Positions 2,465 to 25,769 of a stretch of 33,782 bases of DNA are shown here, piece by piece. The DNA is from a virus (Duplodnaviria; Caudoviricetes). Within the stretch, counting starts at the first letter, position 1. Each line of letters opens with the position of its first letter. Both the position numbers and the translations under genes were made by a program. The notes below the pieces were generated by a model that did not search any database, was not told the DNA's origin, and was given only the letters and a program-made list of their open reading frames with translations. Where the stretch lies: positions 1 through 33,782 of IMG/VR virus record IMGVR_UViG_3300027804_001396. One strand, given 5' to 3'.

Positions 2465-2686
2465 ATGAAAGAAAAGTTAAATGACATGCAGGAAAAGCTG
2501 TTAGACTGTCTAATCAGCGACCTAAACGATCCAGACCGCCGTACACCAGGACTTTACACCGTTGTACGCGGTATCCTTAGCGATCACAAGGATAAGGTTA
2601 ATACCATTCCTAATGAGTCAATTGAAGCAGTCGAAGCAGCCATGAAGGATGCCGTCCCATTCAAGATTAAGAAAGCAGCATACTGA
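2465..2686 (+). CDS. terS: terminase small subunit, T7 gp18-like
   Basis: LISDLNDPDRRTPGLYTVVRGILSDHK resembles the gp18 DL..D.KR(S/T)P.LY.....L..HK signature; RBS AAGGAG; coupled to the large subunit. Confidence 0.8.
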   Translation: MKEKLNDMQEKLLDCLISDLNDPDRRTPGLYTVVRGILSDHKDKVNTIPNESIEAVEAAMKDAVPFKIKKAAY

Positions 2687-9268: not shown

Positions 9269-12079
9269 ATGAATGGTTTTCTATCTAACTCCCCATTTGC
9301 AGGATCTAACCCAGAATTAAGTACAAAAACCAAAGAAACTGAATTTTATCTTCCTAGTTTATACTTAAATGAAGAAGAAGTCCAAGAAGAAAATAAAAGG
9401 TTTTCTGAATTCATAGACAATACAGTTGAAGCTAGAGAGTATACTAAAAACTCAACTTTAGATGATAAAGAAAGATTACAAGTTCAGACTTACTATGAAA
9501 ATAAAGAAGATTTTTGGAAGTCAGCAACAAAAGCCTCAACTAATAAAATTAATGAAGTATTGGCTGGTTGGCGTTTAGATAGAGAAGACGAACCAGTAAT
9601 GAGTATTACAGTGGCTGGACCCGAAGTTACTTTATTCCAACCAAAAAAACTTGCTAACAGTGATTGGCAATTTGTTGATGAGTTTACTTTTGCTGGTGGT
9701 TCTACTTTTGGTGCTTTATTAGATGCTGAAGCCAGTACTCCTCAATTTACAGAACTATCTGGACGAAATGCTCAAGCAAATCACTATGCTGCTATTAGAG
9801 CCAGAGGTGGTAAGCAAGGAGAACTATGGTCACGGGCTATTCAAAATAGTACTTGGTTACAGGGAATGTTAACAGAAACAGACTCAGTTAAACAAGCTTT
9901 AGATGGTTGGATTGAGAGTACACCAACTGCTTTTAACGTAAAGGCATCTATTCCATTAAGTGCTTATCTAGGAGATACCATTCTAGATGTCTTAGAAGAT
10001 AGTCCAAAACCAGAAGGATGGACTACTGAACAAGCAATTAAAGAACTAAAGGAAGCTGATCCTGGTCTTGCAGCATTTATCTTTGGTGATATGCAAGTTA
10101 AAGAAGAAAGACTTAAGGAATTAGCTAAAACTCCACTTCAATTTAAATACTTTATTGGTGATGCTATTGATACTTTTGCATATCAATCTTTCTTAGCTGA
10201 ATATACTAAAAAGGCAGGATTCTTTGAAGAAGCATATTCTATTTATGCGTGGCCTTTAATTAGAGATTCAATCAATTCAAATGATGCATTATCTGAAGTT
10301 ATGATTACAGGAGGAGCAATTGCTTTAACTGCTACGGGAGTAGGAGCTTTTGTAGGTATTCCTCTTTTAGTTGGTAAAGGTACAGAAAAAATCTATAAAA
10401 CGGTTAAGGGAGCTGCTAAAACCTTTGATATTATTGAAAGTGTTGCTCGTAGAAGTGGCCAAATAGCCAAAGTAAACCAAGTTATTTGGAAAACACAAAA
10501 GTTTTTACCAAGTAGACTTCCAGATACCGTGTTTGATAGCTGGAGTGTAACTAAAAAGTTATTTAAAGTTCCAAAAGATGCTGGAAGATTGAGAAAAATA
10601 TCAACCTATGCAGGTAAACAATTCATAGGAGAGTTTGCACAAGGTTTACTTGAGTCTGGTGTCCAACAATACGAAGGTATGTCTACTGGATTCCAACAAG
10701 AATTTAGCGTTAAGGATATGTTATATAATGGTCTTGAAGAAGGTATAGGAGGTATATTCTTAGGTGGACCTGTAAAAGCCCTCAGTGTTGGTTCAGAACG
10801 GTTAATGACAACTAAATTAGGTGATCGAATAAACACAGTTATAGATGCGGGTAAAACAATCGTGTCTACCTCAATTAAAGTATCTCCACAAGTTGAAAAT
10901 ACAATAGATACTGCTGTTCGCCTTATGATGGGTATTAAAGATGGAGTATCTATACAGGACTATGAAGGAGCAATTGAACAAAGACTACGACTAAAGAATG
11001 CTTTAATTCGAATTGAAACTACAACTGGTTTAAAAGGTATTTTAGACGCAGATGACGATCAAAATGAGTTATTGACTGCTGCTATTACCGCACTATCTGG
11101 TGGAGATCCTAGTAAAGAATTCCCAGCAAGGGTTGAAATCTTAAAAAGAATTACAACACTTATGGATAGATTCCTAGAACCAGGTACTAATGGAGAAAAC
11201 ACAAGTGCAGAAGACGTAGAAGCTTTACTATTTTTAACGGCTATTGAAGGCGCAGGAAATAATGAAGTAGAGATTGCTCGTATTAATGAAGCTTTGTGGT
11301 TATCTAAGAAGCGTAAAGAAGGTGTTACTGAAAAAGATGGAAAACCCCTTACTATTAAAGACGCTACAGATGATGAACTAAAACAAATAGCCCAAGAAAT
11401 GCAAGATAAGACAAATCTACTTGCTACTAAATTGGGAGTAGATAATGCCGATCAAATTGGTAAGATATTTGGTTCCAGTCTATCTGAAGAGGATATTGAA
11501 CTAACAAACGAAATTATTGAAGAATACGAAAACGATAAAGCAACTTCAGGAAGCACCGAAAAAGAAACAATTAATTTTGGTGTTACAACTGAAGGTGTAA
11601 TTAAAAGTGATGTAGATCCTGTAAAACAAAAAGAAAAACAAGTTACACTTGCTACTAGTACTATGATGGTTGGTATGTTAAAAACAGATGATGAAATTGA
11701 ATTTGAATACTCTTCTGGCTCAAGAGCAGGAACTAAACGACGTATTCGTGTAATTAGTATTGAGACAAATAAGAAGGGTGAGCAAGTAATTAAAGGTTTT
11801 GATCTAGATAAAGGTGAAGAACGAAACTATCTTACAAAAAATATTACTGGTTCCTTTACATATTTCGAATCAAAAAAGAGTGAAACTACATCAGAAGCTA
11901 AGACAAGTATACCAGAAGCTAAAACTGAACCAGTGCCAGCTCCCAGTACTACTAAAGACTCAGTATCATCTATTGTTGATGGTTTATTTGAAAATAAAGA
12001 CGTAGATGAGAATATTGAATTAACAGAAGAAGAAAAAGCAGACTTACTAAATAGAGTTTGCTATAGAAAGGACACTTAA
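9269..12079 (+). CDS. large internal virion protein, 936 aa, with a TM-like segment and a C-terminal WYL-like domain
   Basis: Hydrophobic VMITGGAIALTATGVGAFVGIPLLVG (about 10295-10376); IEFEYSSGSRAGTKRRIRVISIE...IKGFDLDKGEERNYLTKNI (about 11675-11850) fits the WYL pattern. Confidence 0.6.
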   Translation: MNGFLSNSPFAGSNPELSTKTKETEFYLPSLYLNEEEVQEENKRFSEFIDNTVEAREYTKNSTLDDKERLQVQTYYENKEDFWKSATKASTNKINEVLAGWRLDREDEPVMSITVAGPEVTLFQPKKLANSDWQFVDEFTFAGGSTFGALLDAEASTPQFTELSGRNAQANHYAAIRARGGKQGELWSRAIQNSTWLQGMLTETDSVKQALDGWIESTPTAFNVKASIPLSAYLGDTILDVLEDSPKPEGWTTEQAIKELKEADPGLAAFIFGDMQVKEERLKELAKTPLQFKYFIGDAIDTFAYQSFLAEYTKKAGFFEEAYSIYAWPLIRDSINSNDALSEVMITGGAIALTATGVGAFVGIPLLVGKGTEKIYKTVKGAAKTFDIIESVARRSGQIAKVNQVIWKTQKFLPSRLPDTVFDSWSVTKKLFKVPKDAGRLRKISTYAGKQFIGEFAQGLLESGVQQYEGMSTGFQQEFSVKDMLYNGLEEGIGGIFLGGPVKALSVGSERLMTTKLGDRINTVIDAGKTIVSTSIKVSPQVENTIDTAVRLMMGIKDGVSIQDYEGAIEQRLRLKNALIRIETTTGLKGILDADDDQNELLTAAITALSGGDPSKEFPARVEILKRITTLMDRFLEPGTNGENTSAEDVEALLFLTAIEGAGNNEVEIARINEALWLSKKRKEGVTEKDGKPLTIKDATDDELKQIAQEMQDKTNLLATKLGVDNADQIGKIFGSSLSEEDIELTNEIIEEYENDKATSGSTEKETINFGVTTEGVIKSDVDPVKQKEKQVTLATSTMMVGMLKTDDEIEFEYSSGSRAGTKRRIRVISIETNKKGEQVIKGFDLDKGEERNYLTKNITGSFTYFESKKSETTSEAKTSIPEAKTEPVPAPSTTKDSVSSIVDGLFENKDVDENIELTEEEKADLLNRVCYRKDT

Positions 12080-15000
12080 TGGCTACTAAAGGATGCAATA
12101 TCAGTGATTTTATTGAAGATCTCCTAAAACAAACAAATGCAGATGGAACTCGTAAGTATACAGACGCCCAAATCCGTGGTAAACTACGAGCAGCATTTAA
12201 GGGAGGATTAATTAATAAGGCTCAACTGATAGCTACAACAGGTAAAACAGACTTATTAATCACTGAACCAGAGTTTGTTGAACTTGAAAACCTAGCCACT
12301 ACGGTTGCAAACTCAAATAAATCAATGTTTGAGGTTCTTTCCCAAGACCAACTAAAAAGATTTGTTGAACTAACCAACAAAGCTAAAAATTCCATTGGAT
12401 CAGGAACTACTGGTAGACTAAATCAAAGTCGATTAACTTCAGTATTAGATACACTTAACGAAACTCCACCAACTAAAATTACAAGTATTCTTGATATATT
12501 AGATCGTTCAATTGAAAAAGCAGAATTAGTAGGAGATTTAGCAAGAGTAGATAAACTACAGAAGATTAAGGCATCATTTATAGATATGGCTGATCTTTCA
12601 TCTAAATTAAAGATTGACTGGAAAGCTATTTCTAAAACAAACAGTGAACTCGATAAACTTACTCTTGAATACGCAATGGTTAAAGAAATCTTAGATATTG
12701 GCGACAGAGAAACAGCCGAGTTTAAGAAAAAGTTTGCAGTTGAAATGTTAGATATTAAAGATGAAATCCAAAAGACACAAAAAAGAACTGATCTAACAGA
12801 CGACGAAAAGAAAAAAATTATTGATAAACTAATTATCAAACAGCAAGAATTAATGAAGAAGTTTAATGAAACAACTTCAAAAAAGTTTAAAGATGCTAGA
12901 CGAAAGCTTGAAAAGAAACTAAAAACAATCAATTACCAAATTCAGAGACTCAAGGACAATGCCCCTAATTCATTCCTAAATAAAATTCTTATATCTATTA
13001 CAGGTATTGATTCAGAGTTTTTTGTTACTAGTTTAAGAGAACTTAAAGAAAGACAACTAAAAACAGAAGACGATATTAAACTAGCAGAAAAGATCGTTGA
13101 AGAGTATGCTGAGGATAAAACCTTTACTATTGCTGAAGTTCAGTGGTTATTTGGAGAAGACTATACTTCAACTAAAGCTGTTAAAGAAACTTTTTATGAA
13201 ATCGAAAAGAATCCAGATGGATCACCAAAAAAAGACTCTACTAATAAACCAATTAAGAAACGTAAAGAAAGAATTACTTTAGATGAAGTAAAAGAATTGC
13301 TAAGTTTATGGTCTGAGTTTAAACGATCTAAGTCATATGAATCTACAGTTTCAACTTTAGAGTCAACTAGAATAAACAATATTCTCCTAGCTGGAGATGA
13401 CAAACTTGTTTCTGAGGTTGAACCTGAAGATGCTCTTCCAATTGCTAGAACACACACTGAAGCTAAAACAGCTAAAGTTGGATATCGCTATGATCCACGA
13501 AAAGTAGCAGATAGAGTAAAGGGAGTAAAAGATTTACAAACTGCCCTACAAAGACTAACTTATTTAAGTAGTTTACCAAACCATAAAGGTTATATCTCTG
13601 CTGGAATGTTAATTGGTGTACTTGGCCAAGACGCTCAAAGTTTATTCCATAGATTTGATGACGCTATAATGGATGATCTTGAATTAGATAATCCAGATCA
13701 AACCGAATCTGAAACAACAATGGAAGGTAGACGTTTAGTTCTACAAGCAAACCTAGAAAAATTAGGATTTACCTCCAGTGAAATTCTTGCTATGCCAGAG
13801 TTTACTGATGCTGGTTATGTAGATAACTTTACCAAAGTTGTATCTTTTGATATTGAATGGGAACCAAATACAAATAATATTATTGCAGTTGGAATTGTAG
13901 AATACATTAACGGTAATCCAGTTCCAGCCCATACAGAAGTAATTTGGAGTCGATCTGGTAAGGATCAATACCTAACTAAAGACGATGCAGAAGAAGTATT
14001 ACAGAGACTACATACTTATCAGAATAGTGGATTCAAGGTTGTAGGTCATAACTCCCTTGGGTCTGATTCAGATATGCAAAAACTAGTATCTGTTTCTGGT
14101 AATACAAATCTTGGTATGGCTGTTGCCATTCGATCTTTAGATACCATGCTTTTAGGCTTCCGTAATAGCCCTATGGGAACCTTTACAAGAACCTATGGTC
14201 CAAGCCTAGACAACCTGTCTAAAGCCTTAGGAACGGGTTCTAAGGCCAGCAAAGCAGGAGTAACTGGAGTAACTGCCCATGAAGCTTGGAAAGCCTCTCA
14301 TGCAAGCGGAGACTATACCGACTTTACTGACTATTTAATCCAAGACGTTGCACTTACTGGTAGAAATCTTCTGGAAATGGTACATCGAAAGAATACTACA
14401 GTTGATGTTAATAACTCAAGGGGCGAACCACAACCAGTTCAACTATTTGATATTACTCCAATTTGGTATGACACAGGTAAACCAGAAATTGGTAGAAATC
14501 AAAGGTATCGTGGTGTAGGTGTCCTATTTGATATTGTTTCTTTTAAGAATATGCAAGAACAAATGGGCTTAGGTTTATCACAAAGTGTTATGTATGATGT
14601 TGCTAAACTAAAAAACGTTACAATTCAAATGATTCTAGCTCTAATGAAAGCAGATAATAAGTCGGATATTGATACTATCTTTGCTGCTCTAAATGCAAGA
14701 GAAGAAACATTAATAGAAAATTTTGATTCATTATTAGAGATTTCTAGATCAAACCACACTGCTTATCTTCCAATCCTAAGAGAAATTCGAAGAGCAAATC
14801 GAAATGAATTCCTGTTAGACGCATCTCGTGTAAGTGGAAGTGAGGTTGTTTATTCTAAAACTCCAACTAAGAGTGTATATGAAACAAATGCTTTAGAAGA
14901 AGTTATTAGTACCCTTGCTGCATATAACAGAAATCCACAACGATCACTAGATAAGTTTGCTCGGTTAGTCGGATTTAGAGAACGAAACGAAGGTGAAAGT

Positions 15001-18000
15001 GCTCTAAGTTATCTACGAGAATTGTTTAACTATTCAGCAACAAAATTTAACAATCAAAACTTAACCATAAGTGACTTTGGTGATGGTACATTTGATTATG
15101 TTCCAGCTAAACAACTTGGTCGTGGTTTTGCACAACTAGTTCTTGGTCATATTGACGATGGATTAAAACTAAGTCAAAACATTAAGACACCTGTTGATGT
15201 CATTGATCAACGTAGAGAAGAAGCAGAGTTAGATGGTGAAAAGATTGAATTTGAGGATATTGATAACCTCGTAGAAAAGAGAGAGTATCTTCCACTAACA
15301 AAACAAAATGTTTCTTACTTTGCTCCATTAAGTATGTTTGAGCAAGAAAGAATGTATAATGACTTTGCATTAAGACAAAGATATCATTATATTTTAAATC
15401 ACAACCTTACTGATGATGATCTTCGTGAATTCGAAGATTGGAGAAAAGTAAATCCAGTTGTTGAACTTAAAAATGATATTAAACTAAAGCAAGCAATTCT
15501 AAAGGAACTTCGGGATAAAACTCTTAAAACAGAAGCAGATTTAGATAGACTAGAAAAAGTTTATTTCCCAAGTGGAATGACTTTTGTAACTCCATTTGAT
15601 GATTACTTCTTGTTTGATACATCAATCTCCTTTGAAGATAAAGTTAAACAAACAAAATTATTACTTGCTGAATCTAAACAAAACTTAAAAACATATCTTG
15701 AAGGACTTGACAAAGGTCGATTAGAGCAAGGACGTGTTCAAAGATACAATCTACATCTAGTTCCAAATAATAGAAGCATCTATTCTCGTATTCCTACAAT
15801 GGAAGAGATGGAAGAAATGTCTTTAGAAATTGCTTTGGATCTACCACAGTTTATTGCTACTTTTGTTCACGACTCTGTAAATCTAATGGATTCTGCAAAT
15901 GTAGTTGTAGCTGGAGAAAATCATTGGGAAATGCCAGAACTTTCTTCTGGTGGTCCTACTGGTGCAGCTAGACTTGCTGGTATTGATGCCCAACTTGCTT
16001 GGCTTATGAGCCATCCCGAATTAGGTCGAGATCCTGAACTACTAAAAGAACTTACTCGTAAGTCATTAGAAAATGGATGGAAGCAGTTTACTAGTAGAGG
16101 TTGGTCGCGTTCAACCTACTGGGACGATCACATGAGCGGTATTCACCACAAAGCAGCAATGCTTTGGTCATACTTCCCCGATAGTACATTCAAAGCTCAG
16201 GGTGGTTTACTGGCAATCCTTCAAGGAATTAAAGACGGTTCGGTATCTAAAGAAAAACTTAAGGATTACTATGTTGAAACCTATAGTCAACTAGAAATTG
16301 CCTTAGACAAGGTTGAACAAGAGTTTACAAATGCAGGACTAACTAAAAATGTAAATCAAATCCAAAAGATTAGAACTCTGTTAAACGGTAGTACTGAAGT
16401 CCGAGAATTCTTTAAGGGTGTTATTATTCCAGTAGTGTATGAAGGTGGTTATGATGCTGCTCTAACTGGATTACGAGATAAACAAAAATCAAAGATTTCT
16501 CCTGGTGATCCTATTCATCAACTAAATGATGAAGATCTTAAGGAAATTACAAGAATCCTAACTGAAACTGGAATTGTTGTTCAGGGTAGACTTGTCGATG
16601 AAATCCTTGGATTAGATACAAACAAAGTACGAGAGCTGATGAAACTATTTGAACAGGGTGTTGAACGCCTTGCGCCAAACCTTAAGACGGCTACTGATGC
16701 TATGTTTAAGCGTAATCCTATCCTAAGAGATAACTTTATTCATTTAGACGGTGTAAGAGAAGGGATTAAGATTCGTCTACAAACAATTGCTGAATACACT
16801 ATGCCAGCATATTTAGAAAACGAACCAAGAGTCAAACAAGAAGAATGGATAAACAAAAGAGTTGCATTCTTAGAAAACAAGTGGCAAAAAAGAATTAATG
16901 CTGCTTTAGATATTGTAAAGAAAAATGGCGGTTCTATAAAAGTAGGCAGTCAAGTTGAAAGAGATTTCCATGTAGCTTTAGCTGGAGATCAAGCCGCATT
17001 TAAAACACAAATGACTTTACTTGGTATTAATAAGATGCAAAACTCAGGCATCAAGCTTAATTCCTCAGATCGTGATATTCTAGAAGCATCAGTAATGACT
17101 GGTAGACATATTGCCGATTCGGATTTAATGTTTACAGACCATGTAGTATTTACTACAGTAGGTATTGGTACTGGTTCTGGACGTGCTCAGTATGTTGGCA
17201 ACTACCTAACAAACCTACATGGTAGTAAACTGTCAAAGGGTAATCGTTATGTTGAAAATCCAGATGGAAGTATTAACTGGAAAGAAACAGTTAAAAATAG
17301 TGCGTGGAGTTTAGTTGGAAATAACTTAACAGGATTGCCAAAGGATGTTGCCAAAAAGAAGTTACGAGAACTTGCAGTTAAGAATTATCTTCTAACCGTA
17401 GCTACAGACTATCCACCTACCATGATTGGATACAACATGGATGATGAATCTAGAGGACAGTTCTTTAAGGAATGGCAAGAAAGATCTAGAAAAGAGCGAG
17501 AATGGGAAGCTAATGAAAGACTGACTGATATTGAAAAACTAAAAGCAGCTTATACAGCCGAGGGTAGAACCCTTACCGATGAACAAATTGAACAAGCAAT
17601 TGCTAGTAATTCAACACCAAGAAATAAAAGACTAGGTACTCGTATTCTAGCACCAACTATTACTACAAACGATGATGATGCTGTAATGTCTGTTGAAGAT
17701 GCTAAGGGTTTAGCTGGGTTTAGACCAAGACTAGCTGATAATGCTTTTGAAGATAGAATTGTTCATGGTTTATATAGTATCTATCAAGGCATTAAGAAAC
17801 TTAATCTTGGAACCGAAAAGGTTAGAGAAAATTTGGAAAGAATTGAAAAAGAAGGAATGACTCCTGATAAGGTCTTTGACATGGAAAACTCAAGGGCAAC
17901 TCAATACGATCCAAATAAGTTAGGTGTATATTTCCCAGAAGTTGAATCATCCTTAGTTGAGTCTATCTTTGGCGAAAGACCAACATTTAATCAAAGAGTA

Positions 18001-21000
18001 TTAAGATTAAAATATGTCTTAGATACCTTTGCTAGAAAAAATGGATTACAAGATTTAATTGACAACAAAGAATATGCAACAGTTTATCAAATCTATAAGA
18101 TTAGACAATCTCTAAAGAAATTTAGTTTCCTTGTTTCACAGAAAGTAATGCAACCATATGAACTTCGATATCTACATCGACACATGGTTCAACAAATTTT
18201 CCGTTTAACTAAAGCTCAACGAGATGCAACTAATGTTAAAACAAATATTCTCGATCTTTCAAAGTCAATTGGTATTGATCCAGAACACTTTAGATATCCT
18301 GATAATACCAACATGCGTTGGCTTGATGTTCTAAAAACTTTAGCTGATCTAGGTATTGAAGAAGTTTCGACACTTCGTTTTGGTATGTCTCCAGTTGAAA
18401 TGTTAACTACAGAAACAGGCGCAGCACCAGATATTATTTCTGGAAGAAAGACCGCTATTTTCCCTAATACTATTCAAGGTGGAGACGTTGCGGTTATTTT
18501 TGAAAGAATCTGGGCTAATGATTTAGTACAAAAGGAAGCTAAAGTTTATCTTGATAATCTAGTAAAGACTGGTGTTATCACTGGATATAAGACAGATCAA
18601 ACAAATAAATATGTTCTTTTATCATCTCTAGATAAAGCAACTGAACAACAAGTTCTTGAACACATTCTTGGTAATGATGAACTTATTATGGGTGCTGCTG
18701 AAAATCTTGGTTTATTTGTTGACTTTGAAATGGGAACTTCAGAAAATATCCTTAGATTGCAGAATTCCCAATTCCACGCTAATACAGATGGCGTATATAT
18801 TAATCCACAACGAGGCTTAGGTGAAATTACTGTAAGCCGTGTGGTTGAGGGTTCGCAAAATATTAAGTTCTACTTGACACCCGAAGCTGTTAAGAGAATT
18901 TTAAGAGGTGCTAGAAACTCTGGATTGTTTACACGAATTGAAACTGCTGTTCAAATAAATAAGTTCCTTGGCACTAGTACAACGGTAGATCAGTTACGAA
19001 GAGAAAAATATGCAGAGTATCTTGATTCACATCTAGATCAACTTGCAGATGAGACAGATATTCTTGCTGAACTACAAGGTGATAATCTACAAAGATTGCG
19101 TACAGATCGACTTAGAGATTCAATGGGTATTGAACTTAATCTTTATGATGCCGAGTATTACTTCCACAATGAAGATTCAATTACAAACCTTACTCCATTT
19201 AAAAATGCAGTTACTTTAGATATTAGAATTGCTGCTGAACGGGCTTCAAGATATCCTGCTTTACAAACTGAATATGGTGTTTTAAATCGTTTAATGACTG
19301 AAGATAAAAACCAATGGTGGTTCTTGCGTATTGGTTTTGCAATCTTCTTACAGAATAATCTAGGTCGAACACTAACTGAACAGGAGTTAAAGATTATTCT
19401 AGAAGAGCATTTTGGTGAAAAGTTTACAGATGTAAAATATAATGAATTTACTACAAAACTTTCTCAAGTTACCAATATTATTGACCGAATCAACCACTCC
19501 CCATTCAAAGGTAAGAATAAGTATCTTCATCTTGCAATCAAGCATAGAGAACAAATGCTTGCGGTACCACAAACCTTTAATGATAAATTTGATGTTTTCT
19601 CGTTTATCAAAAACTTTGGAGTACCTGTTGAAGATCATGACCTCGCAGCTCAAGCTGTAATTGAAGCATATGCTATTGTTGAAAACAAAGCAAATCTTCC
19701 TGAAGCTTATTCAACAATCCCAAGCAATGATTTAATTAAGATTGCTAGTAGTTCAACAGATTTTGATATTGCATTCCCTGAAGGAAAACAAATCAATGCT
19801 CAACTTGTTAAACTAAAGATGGATGGTGTAATTGACGACGAAACAGAAACATTCTATCGTTTACTTATTGGTAAAGTTCTAAAGCATAATCCCCATTTAG
19901 CTAAGTTCTTATCTATTAAGATAGACGACCTTGGTACAATTAGAGCTGGTGAAGCTGTAAAGGATGGAGATAGATTTATTATCAATCTTAATCCAACCAT
20001 TCTAAAGAACATGGGTCGCATAGATCAAATTAGAGTATTCTCACATGAAATTGCACACATTGCTAGACTAGCTTTTATTAAGGATAACGGACCAGAGTGG
20101 AGAAAGATTGAATCATTGTTTAGATCCAAGAGAGGTTCACAAGGTATCGAAACAATGTTATTAGTAATGAACAATAACCAACGATACGAAGGATTTGAAC
20201 AAGATTTACGATACTTTAAAGAAAATCCTGAAGAGTTTATTGCTTTCTGGGGTGGTTGGATGTTGGTTGAACAAGTGTTTAATAATGTTGATGTTATGAA
20301 GTTTATTCAATCTAGAAGTACAGCCGCTTACGCTGTAACTATGGGATATAAAACAGCTTTCCACAGAATTAGAGATGAAGTCAAAGCAATCTCATCTGGT
20401 CTTTATGATATTGATGAACAAGTGTTTAATGAAGTTCTCGATCTTACTGAAGCATTGTTTGGTTTTACAAGTTCTATCGAAAGAGAAATCTTTGTTGCTA
20501 ATGAAAACAAAACACTTGGATACCTGGGAGACTTTGATGAACCAATATCAAACACTGGTAGAGATGTAGACGAACTTGCTAGACTAACTCAAGATGAAAG
20601 AAATGGAGTTCCACTTAACGCTCTTGATCAACTTAAGTTAGCAAGTTTACGAAATAAATATAGCAGTGGTCCAATTCAAAACTTAGATATTGTCGAGTAT
20701 AAGAGACTACGACAAAAGAGAGAATCTTTACAAGGAAGTTCCTTATTAAAGCCAACACACAGAGAGCATCCAGGATATACTGGAGTATCTGTACAAGATC
20801 TTTCTTCAGAAGAAAAGCTTGAGATTGCACAGACTGTGGTTTCAGAAACAATCGCAAGACGAAAAAATACCTCTATTAATCAAAGTTCACTTGGTGGTTC
20901 GGCACGACTTGCTTCCGAAAAGGTTTTTGGAAAGAAGGCTACAAGAAATCTTTTAGCATTTAGGCACTACTGGGGAACTATGGGTTTAACACGAGCAAAC

Positions 21001-24000
21001 AAAACCTATTCTAGTGAAAACCCAGCCGTAGCTGCTTTAATGTATATTATTGGTGAAAGCTTTAGTCATACTCAAGGTCAGTTTGTAAAAGAAACTGGAT
21101 CTAGAGCAATTAGAGAAAACAGAGCTTATACCCAACAGTGGGTTGACCGAGTTGCTTATGAAATTGGACAACTTAAGATTATGTCCTCTGACACCGAGTT
21201 TGCTGCTCTTATGGAATATGCTGTTGATGTTGCTTATGGTTTACCAACAGCTACACCACCAACTGGTATTTCAGTAGACAAGATTGATCAAGCTCGGGAA
21301 GTTGGTAAGGCTATTATCATTAATTCAGATAATATGGCAGGATTTATTTATGGTGAAGGAAGAAAGTTATTTAGTGATTTACCTGTAATGCTTAACCGAG
21401 AATTACTAGGATTAAGAAAGAAGAATTCCAATCCTGCCAAAGAAGGTGAATTTGAAGCTAATAGAGCAGGACTTATCCAAGCTGCATCTGATGCAGTAGT
21501 TGATTCTGTACTAAATAAAGGTGCAATAAATGGAACACTATTCTACGCTAGTGGATTAGCTCCTCAAATTAGTGGACATCCATATAGTTTTGATAGGAAT
21601 CAGTTTATTGATCAAGAATTCTTATCTAAACTATGGGAAACAAGAAACAATAGTCCAGAAACATTTGAGATTATTTTTGAAATTGCAGTTCGTCAACTAA
21701 ATAAGATAACCAAAGATGTAGCTATATCTAGACAGATGTTACGACAATCAATGACAAATCCTAGTTTTACGCTTAATGCAAAACCAAATTTACATAGAAT
21801 TTGGGAATCAGCCACTAGAACTTTCTATCAACTTGCAAACAATACAAGAAACAGAAATGAATTAATTAAAAGTATTAATAGAATTTCTTCAAAGAGAGAA
21901 AAAGTTCCAGACATTGATTTAGTAGTTGTTCAGGATTTCTTTAATGCTATTGATGCTGCAATTGTTTCAAAACAACCAGTTAGAGACATGGGTAAGTTAT
22001 TTGTAGAAAGCACAAAAGGATCTTTCCCACCTGGAGTTACCAATATTCCAGCTGGAAAGAAATCAGCAATTGTATTGACTGCACAAACCAAAACCACATT
22101 ACCAGAAATCATGGCTGGCGTTTTCCTATCTGAACTTGGAGAATCACCTAACTATATTCTTGCTGATGGTATTATTACTGATACTCAGATTGCCAAGTCT
22201 GCTAATCTAAGAAAGTATTTCTCAAATAGACTTGATATAATCCTAAGTGATGTTGAAAGATCTAAGGGTTTTAGAGCTACTTCGGCATTGGCTATTCAAG
22301 ATAATACAGGAATTGTTGGATTTGATATCTATGATATTCTTGAGATTTTTGAATCACTGGCTAGTAATATGAATCCAAATCTATCACAAGATGCCAAGGA
22401 ATTACAAGAATCATTAATTGTAATTCGACAAAACCTAGAAATTGAACAAGGTATTCAAGCTAGAAAATTAGGAGAAGAAGACGATTGGTATACCAATTCT
22501 TTACTAAAGTGGGGTACTGAAATTACAAGAATTGCATATGGCCCAAATCTCAATACCGCATCTTTAATTATGGAAGGTGCCCTTGGTGCATTCATTACCA
22601 CTAGATATGGAGGCAATGCAACTGAGTTCTTTGTGGATCTCTTTACTGGTATCTTTAAAAATTACAAAGGTAGTTTTGAAGACATGACAACATATAATCC
22701 ACGAGGACTTGCCATTAATATGTTGTACGGAATGGAGTCTTCAATACGAAATGCCCGTGAAGTATGGGATACTACAAGTAGCAATGATATTGCCCCAGGT
22801 CCTAATAAATGGCAACGATATCGAAACCATATGAGTAAACTACAGAATTCAGTATTTAGAGGAGCTGCTGAAGCATTAACTAACCAAGCTCAACGAATTA
22901 TCGTAGAAAACCTAAATAATGGAAACTTAAATAAACTACGGACATTGTTTAAGGTAGAGGATATCAGAACACTAGATGATTTAAAAATTGCAATGAACAA
23001 GTATAAGATTAAGGGTTTACTGCCTCACATGGCATTTGAACTCAAACAAGCTGGTGTTCTAGAGGATGGAATCCTTGAAGCATATTCATACATGTTAGGA
23101 AATGTTTCTAGTAAGCATGCTAAGGCAGGAACATTAGACTTTATAGCTGCAAATAAATGGATTGAAAACCATGCGTTTACTGTAACATTTGTTGGAAAGA
23201 ATAAGTTTGATAAAGAACAAGCCAAGAGAGCTGTTGCTGTAATGTACGAAGCAACCAAGATGTTTAGAAACATTGTGCTTGTAGAAAACAATCCTTGGGA
23301 CTCAGATACTCACTCTGGAGCTTTACGATATCTATTTACCTTCTATAAACAATATTCCAATCTTTATTGGTCACAGAGAATCATCAGACAATCAGGAAAG
23401 ATGGACAAAGCAACTTTTGTTTCTATCTTAATTGGAACAACAATTGCAGATTTGGTATACAATAGTTTCTTACTAGTTGCACTTGGTATGCTTCCAATTG
23501 CTGCTTTGTTACCTTGGCATGAACAATTTGTGTTTAAAAACAAACCAATGACCACAGCAAGATTAATTCTTAGTAGAAATCCAATCTTTGGTTTAAGTGG
23601 AAACCTTATTGCTGGTTCAATTGCCTATGCTTATGAAACATATAGTGATGTTTCAAACGCTAGAGCAAATAGAAATGAATATCTAGCAACAAAGAAAGCA
23701 GTTGGCAAAGGCTTTGATGAATTAAGTTTAGACTTTGTTCCACAGCAAGCAGTTGAAACACTTACAAAAGATCCACTTACAGCATTCCTAATTGCACTGA
23801 GTGCGGGTTCAAACATGACAGAACAAGAATCATGGGACTTTAAGAATGGACTTTTAAACTCAGCAATGAGATTTGTACCTGGGGGTTTAGGTGAACTTCC
23901 AGTTCGCGTTGGAGCTACTAAGCTTGCATTAGGTGAAAGACCAGGTGTAGATAGGTTTAGAGATGTTAATGTTTCTAGACCAGAAACAGCAGCAGAACCT

Positions 24001-24081
24001 GTTGCTCCTACAGAATCATCTGAGTCAACATCTTCAAGAGATAATCCATTTAAGCCACTGCCAGTTCCAAAGGGACTGTAA
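12079..24081 (+). CDS. giant 4000-aa polyvalent virion protein: DEDDy 3'-5' exonuclease + T7-type RNAP-like domain + zincin metallopeptidase
   Basis: Exonuclease: SFDIEW (D591/E593), VGHNSLGSDSD, YLIQD (Y752/D756). RNAP-like: WDDHMSGIHHKAAML (D1349), REFFKGVIIPVVYEG (R1442/K1446/Y1454), NFIHLDG. Zincin: FSHEIAH (H2656) and NPEEFIA. Confidence 0.75.
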   Translation: MATKGCNISDFIEDLLKQTNADGTRKYTDAQIRGKLRAAFKGGLINKAQLIATTGKTDLLITEPEFVELENLATTVANSNKSMFEVLSQDQLKRFVELTNKAKNSIGSGTTGRLNQSRLTSVLDTLNETPPTKITSILDILDRSIEKAELVGDLARVDKLQKIKASFIDMADLSSKLKIDWKAISKTNSELDKLTLEYAMVKEILDIGDRETAEFKKKFAVEMLDIKDEIQKTQKRTDLTDDEKKKIIDKLIIKQQELMKKFNETTSKKFKDARRKLEKKLKTINYQIQRLKDNAPNSFLNKILISITGIDSEFFVTSLRELKERQLKTEDDIKLAEKIVEEYAEDKTFTIAEVQWLFGEDYTSTKAVKETFYEIEKNPDGSPKKDSTNKPIKKRKERITLDEVKELLSLWSEFKRSKSYESTVSTLESTRINNILLAGDDKLVSEVEPEDALPIARTHTEAKTAKVGYRYDPRKVADRVKGVKDLQTALQRLTYLSSLPNHKGYISAGMLIGVLGQDAQSLFHRFDDAIMDDLELDNPDQTESETTMEGRRLVLQANLEKLGFTSSEILAMPEFTDAGYVDNFTKVVSFDIEWEPNTNNIIAVGIVEYINGNPVPAHTEVIWSRSGKDQYLTKDDAEEVLQRLHTYQNSGFKVVGHNSLGSDSDMQKLVSVSGNTNLGMAVAIRSLDTMLLGFRNSPMGTFTRTYGPSLDNLSKALGTGSKASKAGVTGVTAHEAWKASHASGDYTDFTDYLIQDVALTGRNLLEMVHRKNTTVDVNNSRGEPQPVQLFDITPIWYDTGKPEIGRNQRYRGVGVLFDIVSFKNMQEQMGLGLSQSVMYDVAKLKNVTIQMILALMKADNKSDIDTIFAALNAREETLIENFDSLLEISRSNHTAYLPILREIRRANRNEFLLDASRVSGSEVVYSKTPTKSVYETNALEEVISTLAAYNRNPQRSLDKFARLVGFRERNEGESALSYLRELFNYSATKFNNQNLTISDFGDGTFDYVPAKQLGRGFAQLVLGHIDDGLKLSQNIKTPVDVIDQRREEAELDGEKIEFEDIDNLVEKREYLPLTKQNVSYFAPLSMFEQERMYNDFALRQRYHYILNHNLTDDDLREFEDWRKVNPVVELKNDIKLKQAILKELRDKTLKTEADLDRLEKVYFPSGMTFVTPFDDYFLFDTSISFEDKVKQTKLLLAESKQNLKTYLEGLDKGRLEQGRVQRYNLHLVPNNRSIYSRIPTMEEMEEMSLEIALDLPQFIATFVHDSVNLMDSANVVVAGENHWEMPELSSGGPTGAARLAGIDAQLAWLMSHPELGRDPELLKELTRKSLENGWKQFTSRGWSRSTYWDDHMSGIHHKAAMLWSYFPDSTFKAQGGLLAILQGIKDGSVSKEKLKDYYVETYSQLEIALDKVEQEFTNAGLTKNVNQIQKIRTLLNGSTEVREFFKGVIIPVVYEGGYDAALTGLRDKQKSKISPGDPIHQLNDEDLKEITRILTETGIVVQGRLVDEILGLDTNKVRELMKLFEQGVERLAPNLKTATDAMFKRNPILRDNFIHLDGVREGIKIRLQTIAEYTMPAYLENEPRVKQEEWINKRVAFLENKWQKRINAALDIVKKNGGSIKVGSQVERDFHVALAGDQAAFKTQMTLLGINKMQNSGIKLNSSDRDILEASVMTGRHIADSDLMFTDHVVFTTVGIGTGSGRAQYVGNYLTNLHGSKLSKGNRYVENPDGSINWKETVKNSAWSLVGNNLTGLPKDVAKKKLRELAVKNYLLTVATDYPPTMIGYNMDDESRGQFFKEWQERSRKEREWEANERLTDIEKLKAAYTAEGRTLTDEQIEQAIASNSTPRNKRLGTRILAPTITTNDDDAVMSVEDAKGLAGFRPRLADNAFEDRIVHGLYSIYQGIKKLNLGTEKVRENLERIEKEGMTPDKVFDMENSRATQYDPNKLGVYFPEVESSLVESIFGERPTFNQRVLRLKYVLDTFARKNGLQDLIDNKEYATVYQIYKIRQSLKKFSFLVSQKVMQPYELRYLHRHMVQQIFRLTKAQRDATNVKTNILDLSKSIGIDPEHFRYPDNTNMRWLDVLKTLADLGIEEVSTLRFGMSPVEMLTTETGAAPDIISGRKTAIFPNTIQGGDVAVIFERIWANDLVQKEAKVYLDNLVKTGVITGYKTDQTNKYVLLSSLDKATEQQVLEHILGNDELIMGAAENLGLFVDFEMGTSENILRLQNSQFHANTDGVYINPQRGLGEITVSRVVEGSQNIKFYLTPEAVKRILRGARNSGLFTRIETAVQINKFLGTSTTVDQLRREKYAEYLDSHLDQLADETDILAELQGDNLQRLRTDRLRDSMGIELNLYDAEYYFHNEDSITNLTPFKNAVTLDIRIAAERASRYPALQTEYGVLNRLMTEDKNQWWFLRIGFAIFLQNNLGRTLTEQELKIILEEHFGEKFTDVKYNEFTTKLSQVTNIIDRINHSPFKGKNKYLHLAIKHREQMLAVPQTFNDKFDVFSFIKNFGVPVEDHDLAAQAVIEAYAIVENKANLPEAYSTIPSNDLIKIASSSTDFDIAFPEGKQINAQLVKLKMDGVIDDETETFYRLLIGKVLKHNPHLAKFLSIKIDDLGTIRAGEAVKDGDRFIINLNPTILKNMGRIDQIRVFSHEIAHIARLAFIKDNGPEWRKIESLFRSKRGSQGIETMLLVMNNNQRYEGFEQDLRYFKENPEEFIAFWGGWMLVEQVFNNVDVMKFIQSRSTAAYAVTMGYKTAFHRIRDEVKAISSGLYDIDEQVFNEVLDLTEALFGFTSSIEREIFVANENKTLGYLGDFDEPISNTGRDVDELARLTQDERNGVPLNALDQLKLASLRNKYSSGPIQNLDIVEYKRLRQKRESLQGSSLLKPTHREHPGYTGVSVQDLSSEEKLEIAQTVVSETIARRKNTSINQSSLGGSARLASEKVFGKKATRNLLAFRHYWGTMGLTRANKTYSSENPAVAALMYIIGESFSHTQGQFVKETGSRAIRENRAYTQQWVDRVAYEIGQLKIMSSDTEFAALMEYAVDVAYGLPTATPPTGISVDKIDQAREVGKAIIINSDNMAGFIYGEGRKLFSDLPVMLNRELLGLRKKNSNPAKEGEFEANRAGLIQAASDAVVDSVLNKGAINGTLFYASGLAPQISGHPYSFDRNQFIDQEFLSKLWETRNNSPETFEIIFEIAVRQLNKITKDVAISRQMLRQSMTNPSFTLNAKPNLHRIWESATRTFYQLANNTRNRNELIKSINRISSKREKVPDIDLVVVQDFFNAIDAAIVSKQPVRDMGKLFVESTKGSFPPGVTNIPAGKKSAIVLTAQTKTTLPEIMAGVFLSELGESPNYILADGIITDTQIAKSANLRKYFSNRLDIILSDVERSKGFRATSALAIQDNTGIVGFDIYDILEIFESLASNMNPNLSQDAKELQESLIVIRQNLEIEQGIQARKLGEEDDWYTNSLLKWGTEITRIAYGPNLNTASLIMEGALGAFITTRYGGNATEFFVDLFTGIFKNYKGSFEDMTTYNPRGLAINMLYGMESSIRNAREVWDTTSSNDIAPGPNKWQRYRNHMSKLQNSVFRGAAEALTNQAQRIIVENLNNGNLNKLRTLFKVEDIRTLDDLKIAMNKYKIKGLLPHMAFELKQAGVLEDGILEAYSYMLGNVSSKHAKAGTLDFIAANKWIENHAFTVTFVGKNKFDKEQAKRAVAVMYEATKMFRNIVLVENNPWDSDTHSGALRYLFTFYKQYSNLYWSQRIIRQSGKMDKATFVSILIGTTIADLVYNSFLLVALGMLPIAALLPWHEQFVFKNKPMTTARLILSRNPIFGLSGNLIAGSIAYAYETYSDVSNARANRNEYLATKKAVGKGFDELSLDFVPQQAVETLTKDPLTAFLIALSAGSNMTEQESWDFKNGLLNSAMRFVPGGLGELPVRVGATKLALGERPGVDRFRDVNVSRPETAAEPVAPTESSESTSSRDNPFKPLPVPKGL

Positions 24082-24172: not shown

Positions 24173-24334
24173 ATGGGTCATTTCTGGAAAGCCCTGAAGA
24201 TCGTGTTCGGGGCCATCATCGGTCTGCTCTTTCTCATGGCTGCGGTTAGCGCAGTCACCTGGGAGTGGGCAATCCTTTGTTTCGCCATGTTTTGCATGAT
24301 GTTTACTTTCGTTATGCAGAATGTGTGCGAGTGA
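24173..24334 (+). CDS. small two-TM membrane protein, 53 aa (not in ORF track)
   Basis: MGHFWKALKIVFGAIIGLLFLMAAVSAVTWEWAILCFAMFCMMFTFVMQNVCE with RBS GAAAGGAA upstream. Confidence 0.65.
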   Translation: MGHFWKALKIVFGAIIGLLFLMAAVSAVTWEWAILCFAMFCMMFTFVMQNVCE

Positions 24335-24343
24335 CAACCAACA

Positions 24344-24432
24344 CTCCGTGCTCTCCCTTCGGGGAGAGCGCGGGGATGTTAGCTGTTGCTAACACTGTGC
24401 TTGTGCAGATCACAGGCAATTTAACGAGGAGA
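24344..24432 (+). promoter_or_regulatory. multi-hairpin intergenic leader, copy 1
   Basis: Long cUUCGg hairpin, then TGTTAGC-tgtt-GCTAACA, then CTTGTG-cagat-CACAGG, then the RBS. Confidence 0.6.
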
Positions 24433-24436
24433 GCAC

Positions 24437-24598
24437 ATGCTCTACTACGTCACTGTTGAGCGGGATGGAGTTCACGTCGAGACGCACAAGTTCGCTTCCT
24501 GGAAGGAAGCGCGTCAGTACGCCTACGCAGTCAAGGCTGCGCGGCGTGGCGTGGAGGTCTGGATCGGACAAGACGGCGAAGGCGCCGTCAAGATCTGA
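24437..24598 (+). CDS. small hypothetical protein, 53 aa (not in ORF track)
   Basis: MLYYVTVERDGVHVETHKFASWKEARQYAYAVKAARRGVEVWIGQDGEGAVKI; RBS GAGGAG; fills the gap between two leader repeats. Confidence 0.7.
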   Translation: MLYYVTVERDGVHVETHKFASWKEARQYAYAVKAARRGVEVWIGQDGEGAVKI

Positions 24599-24617
24599 TC
24601 TACCGCAACGACCAACA

Positions 24618-24703
24618 CCCCGCTCCTCTGCTACGGCAGGGGGGCGGGGATGTTAGCCGTTGCTAACACCGTACCTATGCGGAACATAGGCTATTCAAAG
24701 GAG
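24618..24703 (+). promoter_or_regulatory. multi-hairpin intergenic leader, copy 2
   Basis: Long cUACGg hairpin, TGTTAGC-cgtt-GCTAACA, CCTATG-cggaa-CATAGG, then CTATTCAAAGGAG. Confidence 0.65.
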
Positions 24704-24711
24704 TAAAGCCA

Positions 24712-25227
24712 ATGGCTTTGCTTACGAAGGCGGTTAGCTGGAGCTCCATCGTGGAGCTCGGCGCAAAGCTCTGCGACCACTGTCGCGGAGAAAACGGAAA
24801 GGCTTTCAAGGAAGCCTTTCTTCTGGGGCAGCGTTGTCCCCAGAACTCGCTGTCCTTTGGGGGCCGCGAAGCGGCCCTCAATGGCAAGTTCGCCATCGCG
24901 TCATCTTTTGCTTGGCTCAAGACCAAGCAGGAGATCGACGTTCTGGAGGCTCGCCTCCTGAACGAAACGTACTCCCTGCGCGGGGAGTACGAGTACGGAC
25001 ACGCCGTGGAGGAACTGGATCAGTTCCTGCACGGGCTCTCTGCATATGCAGAGAGTGACGTCGATTACCTGATGTGGCAGAGCGCCACGTCAGGTACGCG
25101 GATCGTCTGCGTCCGCAAGACGCAGCGGTCTGAGTCCAGGGGCACAACGCACACCTGGATCGCGGAGTACCACGAGGGCCACAAGCTTTCGCAGTACGGC
25201 GCGCTGTGGTCAGAAATGACCGCGTGA
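24712..25227 (+). CDS. hypothetical early protein, 171 aa
   Basis: RBS AAAGGAG, GC-rich third codon positions, one CxxC (CDHC). Confidence 0.7.
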   Translation: MALLTKAVSWSSIVELGAKLCDHCRGENGKAFKEAFLLGQRCPQNSLSFGGREAALNGKFAIASSFAWLKTKQEIDVLEARLLNETYSLRGEYEYGHAVEELDQFLHGLSAYAESDVDYLMWQSATSGTRIVCVRKTQRSESRGTTHTWIAEYHEGHKLSQYGALWSEMTA

Positions 25228-25240
25228 CGGCACTACCGTC

Positions 25241-25331
25241 GCTCTCTCCTAGGTAGGTCCCTAGGAGAGAGCTTTCGGCTGCGCTGTTGCAGCACACCGT
25301 ACCTGTGCGGATCACAGGCTATTCAAAGGAG
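25241..25331 (+). promoter_or_regulatory. multi-hairpin intergenic leader, copy 3
   Basis: 13-bp hairpin, GCTGC-gctgtt-GCAGC, then a 38-nt block that is 35/38 identical to copy 2. Confidence 0.65.
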
Positions 25332-25338
25332 GAGCCAC

Positions 25339-25629
25339 ATGGCTCAATCCGACAAGTGGGTCATCACGACCCGCTACCTGGTGATGGAAGGACCGAAGGC
25401 AATCCTGTCTCGGTCGTCCATCTTGGACGCGATTGATGATTGTGCACAGAGGCATCTGTGCTACATTCGCAGGGAAACTACCATTAAGGTTGATGAAACC
25501 TTGACGGTGATTTCCAACTGCGACATCAACCTTCCAATTCTTCCTGTACACGACATCTACAACATCCCGAATGGGATGGATTACGATGCGCTGAAGAAGC
25601 GAATGCAGGAGGTGTTCTACGGTAAGTAA
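25339..25629 (+). CDS. hypothetical early protein, 96 aa
   Basis: Strong RBS AAAGGAGGAG; bounded by leader hairpins. Confidence 0.7.
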   Translation: MAQSDKWVITTRYLVMEGPKAILSRSSILDAIDDCAQRHLCYIRRETTIKVDETLTVISNCDINLPILPVHDIYNIPNGMDYDALKKRMQEVFYGK

Positions 25630-25769
25630 GAACTAAACGATCCTACCCAAGCCCCCTAGGTTTTCCTAGGGGGCGAAGGGCTGTATCGTTACAGCAAACC
25701 CCTAACGGCATTGAGGGGTGCCCATTCTGGGCCTACATTCAAACCAGGGCACAGCCCTAGGAGAATACA

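What the first reader, a model, noticed from the sequence alone, without database searches (positions are those of the whole stretch)
15841..16760. RNAP-like domain of the giant protein lacks motif C at the expected place but has FVHDS upstream of motif A
Seen order: FVHDS (D1265), WDDHMSGIHHKAAML (D1349), RxxxKx7Y (1442-1454), DNFIHLDG (H1555). In T7 RNAP the IHDS motif follows NFVHSQDG by about 28 aa; no HD is present there. Inference: either a permuted palm, a motif C displaced by a large insertion, or a catalytically dead polymerase reused as a DNA-binding or translocation module.
Basis: partly seen in the sequence, partly recalled or inferred. Interest (0 to 1): 0.75.

Follow-up and report, generated by a model that had tools for sequence, protein, structure and literature searches.

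The report
Scrambled RNA polymerase in phage giant
A 4,000-residue protein of an uncultured T7-like phage carries invariant residues that likely make up the active site of a T7-type RNA polymerase, encoded in a reshuffled order, and it is likely injected with the DNA to start transcription, which would be the first such rewired enzyme in this polymerase family.

Summary
The motifs are at the stated places. FVHDS is very likely the real motif C. H1264 and D1265 are invariant in 45 of 45 aligned homologues (down to about 18% identity), as are D1349, G1354, D1396 and K1446; R1702 is invariant in 44 of 44. These match T7 H811, D812, D537, G542, D569, K631 and R425. The predicted structure puts HD at a beta-hairpin turn, and the fingers match T7 and mitochondrial RNA polymerases (Z 9.0-9.7). 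DNFIHLDG is not conserved (H in 3 of 45). The true NFVHSQD/specificity-loop counterpart probably lies at aa 2092-2147, with no HD after it. Block order is C, A-B, thumb-base/GR, specificity loop; T7 has GR, A-B, loop, C. So this is more than a C-A-B swap. A dead enzyme is unlikely. The gene sits in the gp16 ejection-protein slot of 65-69 kb T7-like phages that encode two further T7-family polymerases. Best reading: an injected starter RNA polymerase, N4-like in role. The D1265-D1349 distance could not be measured. This scan noted the same reordering before on another genome (e1-9797464). Nine literature searches found no report.

The parts
12079..24081 (+). Giant 4000-aa ORF, last of four genes after the terminase (T7 gp16 / N4 gp50 ejection-protein position, inferred)
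   Evidence: same gene order in relatives
15799..15909 (+). Block C (aa 1241-1277): helix plus beta-hairpin with H1264-D1265 at the turn; likely motif C (T7 H811-D812)
   Evidence: 45 of 45 invariant; AF2 strands aa 1260-63 and 1266-69; hhalign to T7 808-824, E 0.0094 against 0.19 for the reversed control
16108..16167 (+). Motif A (aa 1344-1363), D1349 and G1354 = T7 D537 and G542
   Evidence: (rank 1 offset, shuffle p 0.02)
16261..16614 (+). Fingers with D1396 (T7 D569) and motif B R1442-K1446-Y1454 (T7 R627-K631-Y639)
   Evidence: VIA-align rank 1 of 48,161 chains: T7 RNAP 3e2e, Z 9.0, rmsd 2.9 A, 102 residues, T7 568-690
16729..16752 (+). DNFIHLDG (aa 1551-1558): not conserved, not the NFVHSQDG counterpart
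   Evidence: H1555 in 3 of 45
17005..17244 (+). Block X (aa 1643-1722) = T7 313-443: INxxQN helix, most of the thumb missing in place, beta-hairpin with R1702 (T7 R425), NxHG..LSKG (T7 NPQG..MTKG)
   Evidence: hhalign E 1.2e-4, probability 55.7, reversed control 0.35; top window of 131 in an unbiased scan; R1702 44 of 44
18352..18519 (+). Block N (aa 2092-2147): probable specificity loop and NFVH helix (T7 743-798); D2136 = T7 D787; no motif C after it
   Evidence: hhalign E 0.016, reversed 0.49; shuffle p 0.006; D or E in 32 of 32; below the reversed-control maximum
13831..14388 (+). DEDD 3'-5' exonuclease-like domain (aa about 585-770; motif recognition recalled), partly degenerate
   Evidence: D591/E593 in 12 of 19, D665 14 of 19, D756 12 of 19; PF10108 precomputed on P0006
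20044..20058 (+). HExxH zincin-like motif HEIAH (aa 2656-2660), as in the domain after the N4 vRNAP polymerase
   Evidence: Pfam SprT-like E 0.0013-0.003, below cut-off; H17/E18/H18 of 19
2686..4350 (+). T7-type terminase large subunit
   Evidence: PF22530 E 4e-34, phrog_38 E 1.5e-84
4361..5158 (+). T7 gp14-like ejection protein (weak)
   Evidence: PF24072 E 0.017, below cut-off
25770..27584 (+). Second, minimal (604 aa) T7-family RNA polymerase in canonical order (GR 169, A 269, B 325, THQADA 503, VHDAF 536)
   Evidence: T7-family HMM E 3e-5 pairwise; syntenic counterparts in G005 and G007 pass the PF00940 cut-off
24334..25770 (+). GC-rich cassette with repeated multi-hairpin elements before small genes and before the second polymerase gene; candidate first-transcribed region

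Best explanation
The middle of this 4000-aa phage protein is likely an active T7-family single-subunit RNA polymerase whose conserved blocks are encoded in a rearranged order, and it is likely packaged in the virion and injected to start transcription. Shown: the blocks lie in the order C (aa 1241-1277), A-B (1344-1512), X (T7 313-443, aa 1643-1722), N (T7 743-798, aa 2092-2147), whereas T7 has X, A-B, N, C; the residues matching T7 H811, D812, D537, G542, D569, K631 and R425 are invariant. Inferred: D1265 and D1349 meet on the palm sheet and bind the two catalytic Mg ions; K1446, R1442 and Y1454 select and hold the incoming NTP; R1702 contacts template or initiating nucleotide. The simplest history is one circular permutation (motif C moved to the front) plus one swap of X and A-B. 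Inferred role: after ejection with the gp14/gp15-like proteins it transcribes the GC-rich cassette right after its own gene, including the 604-aa second polymerase. That enzyme would then transcribe the third, ordinary T7-like polymerase for the late genes, a three-step cascade like N4's in a T7-like genome. My odds: FVHDS is motif C 0.85; catalytically active 0.85; RNA rather than DNA product 0.85; virion-injected starter 0.75.
For: Invariance: 45 of 45 for H1264, D1265, D1349, G1354, D1396, K1446; 44 of 44 for R1702. Identity to the query falls to 18%, and D1265, D1349 and D1396 are the only invariant aspartates in aa 985-1960. The T7 counterparts are all invariant in 15 T7-family polymerases. 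Unbiased scans: the best windows of 131 were aa 1645-1672 = T7 315-342 (score 28.1) and aa 1348-1363 = T7 536-551 (23.6), against a reversed-profile maximum of 21.4. Ungapped scans ranked the C, A, B, 317-335 and NPQG sites first of about 4000 and about 1500 offsets. Each of four blocks aligned to its own T7 segment (E 0.0094, 0.034, 1.2e-4, 0.016; reversed 0.19-0.72). AF2 on aa 990-1910 (pLDDT 79, pTM 0.73) gives helix, strand, HD turn, strand. The fingers match T7 RNAP (Z 9.0) and human mtRNAP (Z 8.6), the only two of 48,161 chains with Z at least 8. ESM Atlas top hits are PF00940 clusters at 0.89, a lead only. Context: T7-like portal, scaffold, nozzle, fibre, DNA polymerase, primase-helicase and a canonical PF00940 RNAP in the complete 69-kb relative G001. 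The gene order terminase, gp14-like, two large genes, giant recurs in the distant clade, and PF00940 is found in 5 of 5 distant records. GC rises 0.13-0.20 right after the giant's stop in 8 of 8 loci. N4 vRNAP likewise has polymerase then HExxH domain (PMC5512222, PMC13434306, passages).
Against: The D1265-D1349 distance was not measured, because model coordinates are not returned. The motif C match is weak alone: rank 1, but p 0.06, below the reversed maximum, and not first when the window was shifted by two or lengthened. Motif B was p 0.28, and the GR, pre-GR and DIY windows alone did not rank the expected site first. Block edges were chosen after looking, and those E-values are pairwise. 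Pfam, PHROGs, PDB-sequence and Foldseek searches gave no significant polymerase hit. The structural match covers the fingers only, at a Z the tool calls not decisive for helical parts. Block N lies outside the folded region. T7 H784 is Q17/F13/H2, and most of the thumb is not located. There are no virion proteomics, and no host or activity data.
Confidence: 0.7

Rival explanations
1. Active RNA polymerase, but the scrambled blocks assemble between subunits of an oligomer (domain swapping), not within one chain.
For: Ejection proteins are multimeric (T7 gp16 four copies, PMC13434306 passage; N4 vRNAP four copies, PMC4496689 passage). Block N lies about 370 aa after block X and was not modelled.
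Against: A single chain of aa 990-1910 folds with pTM 0.73. C-to-A spacing is 79-127 aa in 44 homologues, compatible with an intrachain link.
Confidence: 0.1
2. A family-A-like DNA polymerase or primase with its own 3'-5' exonuclease, injected for early DNA synthesis or end repair.
For: A DEDD exonuclease-like domain lies upstream, as in family A DNA polymerases (recalled). TV-Pol enzymes show that this core can be primase-like (PMC2579912 passages).
Against: The exonuclease residues are lost in about 7 of 19 homologues while polymerase residues are invariant. The best fold matches are RNA polymerases, with no family A DNA polymerase in the top 50. The INxxQN and NPQG-like blocks and the residue after HD (S26/C12/G4, never E) are RNAP-type. 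G001 has its own DNA polymerase and primase.
Confidence: 0.08
3. A catalytically dead polymerase kept as a DNA-binding or translocation module of the ejection machine.
For: Position in the ejection operon; no sequence-level family hit; thumb reduced; H784 counterpart changed.
Against: Both aspartates, the motif C histidine, the motif B lysine and the GR arginine are invariant at about 20% overall identity. In the same protein the exonuclease did decay in one clade, which shows what loss of function looks like here.
Confidence: 0.06
4. FVHDS is a separate conserved site, and the second catalytic acid is another residue downstream (for example D1682, D2136 or D2173).
For: A probable NFVH helix lies downstream at aa 2127-2139; D2173 is in a predicted hairpin-like DxxG (28 of 32) and D1682 is 30 of 32.
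Against: None of these is invariant Asp. D2136 is E in 18 of 32 and matches T7 D787. No shared HD column exists downstream (at most 2 of 32).
Confidence: 0.06

Closest known systems
Coliphage N4 virion RNA polymerase gp50 (Schitoviridae; mini-vRNAP PDB 2PO4)
   Same: Giant (3500 aa) last ejection protein with a central T7-family polymerase followed by an HExxH domain; injected starter of a three-polymerase programme with a minimal second RNAP (PMC4496689, PMC5512222, PMC13434306, passages). Weak block matches: aa 1698-1769 = mini-vRNAP 420-494 (E 0.035) and aa 1392-1467 = 606-691 (E 0.066).
   Different: N4 keeps canonical order (GR motif at 1418-1423, A 1556, B 1667-1675, C 1948). The fingers here resemble T7/mitochondrial enzymes more (Z 9-9.7) than N4 (Z 5.9). 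Motif C is HD, not FD. The genome is T7-like, all on one strand, and its third polymerase is phage-encoded.
T7 RNA polymerase and mitochondrial RNA polymerases (Pfam PF00940)
   Same: Invariant counterparts of R425, D537, G542, D569, K631, H811, D812; conservative counterparts of R627, Y639, D787; fingers fold.
   Different: Block order C, A-B, X, N instead of X, A-B, N, C. Thumb mostly missing at its usual place, embedded in a 4000-aa protein, not detected by PF00940.
Permuted-palm RNA-dependent RNA polymerases of birnaviruses (IBDV, IPNV VP1)
   Same: Motif C encoded before A and B with a spatially normal, active site (PMC3121795 passages): the precedent that C-A-B works.
   Different: Unrelated RNA-templated lineage. 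Here a second block (thumb base/GR) has moved as well.
T7 gp16 internal virion protein
   Same: Genomic slot after gp14-like and gp15-sized genes; presumed inner-membrane ejection role.
   Different: No sequence match found; T7 gp16 has no polymerase domain (own knowledge).

Membership tests
T7-like single-subunit RNA polymerases (family A superfamily core) | Motif A aspartate on the first palm strand | tested here: met
   D1349 45 of 45; aligns to T7 535-551; strand aa 1347-49 in the model
T7-like single-subunit RNA polymerases (family A superfamily core) | Fingers with conserved Asp and RxxxK...Y (motif B) | tested here: met
   D1396 and K1446 45 of 45; fold match Z 9.0-9.7, rmsd 2.1-2.9 A for the tightest rows
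T7-like single-subunit RNA polymerases (family A superfamily core) | Motif C HD at a beta-hairpin turn | tested here: met
   H1264-D1265 45 of 45; hairpin in the model; T7 808-824 match, weak alone
T7-like single-subunit RNA polymerases (family A superfamily core) | Beta-hairpin with invariant arginine (DxxGR) | tested here: met
   R1702 44 of 44; strands aa 1689-96 and 1703-06 in the model; T7 313-443 match E 1.2e-4
T7-like single-subunit RNA polymerases (family A superfamily core) | Canonical order GR, A, B, C | tested here: not met
   Order C, A, B, GR in all 44 homologues that cover the four sites
T7-like single-subunit RNA polymerases (family A superfamily core) | The two aspartates adjacent in space | not testable with these tools
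T7-like single-subunit RNA polymerases (family A superfamily core) | Specificity loop and NFVHSxD helix | tested here: inconclusive
   aa 2092-2147 = T7 743-798, E 0.016; D/E 32 of 32, but His kept in only 2 of 32
T7-like single-subunit RNA polymerases (family A superfamily core) | DNA-dependent RNA synthesis | not testable with these tools
   Needs an assay
N4-like virion RNA polymerases (Schitoviridae) | Giant last ejection protein: polymerase followed by an HExxH domain | tested here: met
   4000 aa; HEIAH at 2656-60; position after a weakly gp14-like gene
N4-like virion RNA polymerases (Schitoviridae) | Sequence homology to vRNAP with canonical motif order | tested here: not met
   No vRNAP Pfam or PHROG hit and no tblastn hit to N4-like phages; order differs
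N4-like virion RNA polymerases (Schitoviridae) | Schitoviridae genome organisation | tested here: not met
   T7-type terminase, portal, scaffold, nozzle, fibre and a single-chain PF00940 RNAP, all on one strand in G001
N4-like virion RNA polymerases (Schitoviridae) | Present in virions; uses single-stranded DNA hairpin promoters | not testable with these tools
   Hairpin repeats exist downstream but the first type looks like RNA structure; no virion data
Family A DNA polymerases | HDE motif C, intact 3'-5' exonuclease, Klenow-like fold | tested here: inconclusive
   Residue after HD never E; exonuclease intact in about 12 of 19; no family A DNA polymerase in the top 50 fold matches

The most novel reading that the evidence does not exclude
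A whole family of 65-69 kb T7-like phages injects a naturally rewired single-subunit RNA polymerase. Its active site is built from four blocks in non-circularly permuted order spread over about 900 residues, with a fused exonuclease that may proofread or process RNA or DNA ends. It heads a cascade of three phage-encoded T7-family polymerases that may need no host RNA polymerase at all.
Probability: 0.5. Interest if true: 0.85.

Novelty: new variant of a known kind. Interest (0 to 1): 0.72.

Why it matters
A permuted palm is known for some RNA-virus polymerases (PMC3121795), but my searches found none for DNA-dependent T7-family enzymes. A natural, deeply conserved rewiring shows which joints of the T7 polymerase fold can be cut and re-linked, which bears on polymerase evolution and on split or re-engineered T7 RNAP tools. 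It explains why Pfam, PHROGs and Foldseek miss this family. It also puts a virion polymerase, described as unique to Schitoviridae among these podophages (PMC13434306 passage), into a T7-like lineage. The claim is directly testable with two point mutants.

Tried and rejected
DNFIHLDG as the NFVHSQDG counterpart: rejected (H 3 of 45). My early idea that GRVQRY/NNRSIY (aa 1217-1237) is the specificity loop and NFVH helix was dropped: it is not kept in the distant homologues, and aa 2092-2147 matches better. Pfam, PHROGs and PDB-sequence searches found no polymerase. tblastn against cultured phages gave 3 weak unrelated hits. The first AF2 model (19 sequences, pLDDT 56.5) was uninformative and its Foldseek search empty. 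Foldseek with the good model gave nothing at E up to 0.001; yeast mtRNAP ranked first at E 0.89 and phage RNAPs ranked 3, 7 and 8 in BFVD. VIA-align matched only the fingers; the absence of a palm or GR-block match is not evidence either way. Small-segment HMM scans were mostly noise: only T7 312-345 (15 of 18 best hits near aa 1640) and 405-450 (6 of 10 near 1720) localised. ESM Atlas on block X alone named no family. Searches for longer or shorter forms gave 1 fragment and nothing. Complex prediction of block C with the rest plus Mg and GTP was not available, so it gave no verdict. Co-evolution analysis was not attempted because 45 sequences are too few. Gorbalenya 2002 is not held; it is cited only through PMC3121795. 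Hairpin repeats as N4-type DNA promoters: not accepted for the first type, whose UUCG, UACG and GNRA loops and G-U pairs point to RNA.

Full report
Observation. The window is a virus record, about 49% complete. The finding lies in a 4000-aa ORF at 12079-24081. Pfam, PHROGs and PDB sequences name no polymerase here.

Homologues. A word search gave 19 relatives, a search of shorter proteins 1 more, and a profile search of 1.84 billion representatives 40 hits, 32 of them new. Alignment A4 holds the window, 19 of the 20 earlier proteins (P0018 starts after the motifs) and 25 of the 32 new ones (seven short fragments dropped): 45 rows, identity to the query down to 18%. H1264, D1265, D1349, G1354, D1396 and K1446 are 45 of 45; R1702 is 44 of 44 (one fragment ends earlier); Y1454 is Y41/F3/H1; R1442 is R29/K16; H1555 is 3 of 45. 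Only 10 columns of aa 985-1960 are invariant, and six are these. In 15 fetched T7-family polymerases the counterparts R425, D537, G542, D569, R627, K631, Y639, H811 and D812 are invariant. Downstream of motif B no HD column is shared by more than 2 of 32 homologues up to aa 2400.

Block order. A sliding profile comparison of the whole protein with the T7 family put aa 1645-1672 = T7 315-342 (28.1) and aa 1348-1363 = T7 536-551 (23.6) above the reversed-control maximum of 21.4. Aa 2095-2146 = T7 746-797 scored 20.9, below it. Ungapped scans ranked the expected site first for T7 317-335 (p 0.002), NPQG (0.006), A (0.02), C (0.06), B (0.28) and NFVH at aa 2127 (0.006). The GR, pre-GR and DIY windows alone did not. 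With blocks chosen after looking, hhalign gave aa 1261-1277 = T7 808-824 (E 0.0094), 1347-1474 = 535-658 (0.034), 1643-1722 = 313-443 with the thumb deleted (1.2e-4) and 2092-2147 = 743-798 (0.016); reversed controls gave 0.19-0.72. D2136 (T7 D787) is D or E in 32 of 32, but the H784 position is Q17/F13/H2. The order is therefore C, A-B, X, N against T7's X, A-B, N, C. C before A before B before GR holds in all 44 rows that cover these sites, with spacings 79-127, 88-134 and 234-287 aa. No single circular permutation gives this order; one circular move plus one swap does (inference).

Structure. A first model from 19 close sequences failed (pLDDT 56.5). A second, aa 990-1910 from 35 sequences, reached pLDDT 79 and pTM 0.73. 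It shows helix 1241-54, strand 1260-63, H1264-D1265 at the turn, strand 1266-69, a strand ending at D1349, and a hairpin around R1702. Against 48,161 chains only two reached Z 8: T7 RNAP (Z 9.0, rmsd 2.9 A, 102 residues, aa 1395-1512 = T7 568-690) and human mitochondrial RNAP (Z 8.6). In the second look yeast mtRNAP scored Z 9.7 and N4 mini-vRNAP 5.9. Only the fingers matched, as expected of a sequential aligner on a rearranged chain, but this is not proof. Foldseek found nothing significant.

Context. The gene follows a T7-type terminase, a weakly gp14-like gene and two large genes. The complete 69,006-base relative G001 has T7-type portal, scaffold, tube, nozzle, fibre, family A DNA polymerase, primase-helicase and a canonical PF00940 RNAP. 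Directly after the giant gene, GC rises by 0.13-0.20 in 8 of 8 loci. A 600-650 aa gene follows, which in the window has canonical-order RNAP motifs. In the distant clade 2 of 4 such genes examined hit the T7-family profile. PF00940 finds an 812-822 aa polymerase in 5 of 5 distant records, and the short one too in 2 of 5. The third polymerase would lie beyond the end of this window. The giant also holds a DEDD exonuclease-like domain (motifs recalled; D591/E593 in 12 of 19) and an HExxH motif. N4 gp50 has the same polymerase-then-HExxH plan (PMC5512222, PMC13434306).

Mechanism. Shown: invariance, block order, hairpin, fingers fold, synteny, three T7-family polymerase genes or domains per genome. 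Inferred: D1265 and D1349 bind the two Mg ions; the protein is ejected like T7 gp16 or N4 gp50; it transcribes the GC-rich cassette and the 604-aa polymerase; that enzyme reads the TATCGTCCCC-NNN-GGGGAC repeat (2 copies in the window, 4 in G001, one just before the third polymerase gene); the third enzyme makes late RNA. Rivals are assembly in trans (0.10), DNA polymerase or primase (0.08), dead module (0.06) and another second aspartate (0.06).

Comparison and novelty. It works like N4 vRNAP but fails membership (order, sequence, genome type). It is a homologue of T7-family RNAPs that fails the canonical-order feature, hence a new variant. C-A-B order has a precedent in birnavirus RdRps, which are active and spatially normal (PMC3121795). 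Nine full-text searches showed no report of a permuted T7-family polymerase or of this family; subscription papers are mostly not covered. I saw only passages of PMC5512222, PMC4496689, PMC3121795, PMC7824862, PMC2579912 and PMC13434306. 'Permut' did not occur in PMC5512222, PMC2579912 or PMC13434306, and in PMC7824862 it concerned methylases. No supplements were opened. I had formed my reading before seeing it, and it is not independent evidence.

Verdict. Observation partly confirmed, permuted-palm reading supported and extended, interest 0.72.

Noticed in passing
window 29453-29522 (+): Pistol ribozyme, Rfam RF02679, 48 bits against a gathering score of 34.5, E 1.7e-6, in the gene-poor stretch after the second polymerase.
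   Followed up: no
window 24334-24442, 24608-24716, 25232-25344, 25640-25770; L001, L004, L007, L108: Repeated three-hairpin element just before the ribosome-binding sites of early genes. In 11 copies, 11 of 18 predicted pairs show compensatory change; loops are UUCG, UACG or GNRA, with G-U pairs. No Rfam match at E up to 1. Likely an undescribed RNA motif. The patterns did not find it in the distant clade.
   Followed up: partly
window 28454-28473 and 28899-28918; L108 12831, 13204, 18457; L109 1335: Repeat TATCGTCCCC-TNN-GGGGAC, a 6-bp hairpin whose minus strand has a GAA or GTA loop in 5 of 6 copies; candidate promoter of the 604-aa polymerase.
   Followed up: partly
window 25770-27584: Minimal 604-aa T7-family RNA polymerase without N-terminal domain and with a short thumb, missed by Pfam; conserved in position across the family.
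   Followed up: partly
window about 15076-15400 (aa 1000-1107 of the giant): Unexplained conserved block (G1014, P1083, R1101 invariant in 32 of 32; high-confidence helix in the model) with no T7 or N4 match; may replace the missing thumb.
   Followed up: partly
window 13831-14388: DEDD exonuclease-like domain inside the ejection protein, intact in the window and in the distant clade's consensus, decayed in one subclade.
   Followed up: partly
window about 24100: Sharp GC step from 0.36 to 0.56 at the giant gene's stop, repeated in 8 of 8 loci; may mark the genome's leading end.
   Followed up: partly
L113 9998-22392: In this relative the giant gene is called as two ORFs (3249 and 831 aa), while L115 has one of 4182 aa; frameshift or assembly error not examined.
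   Followed up: no
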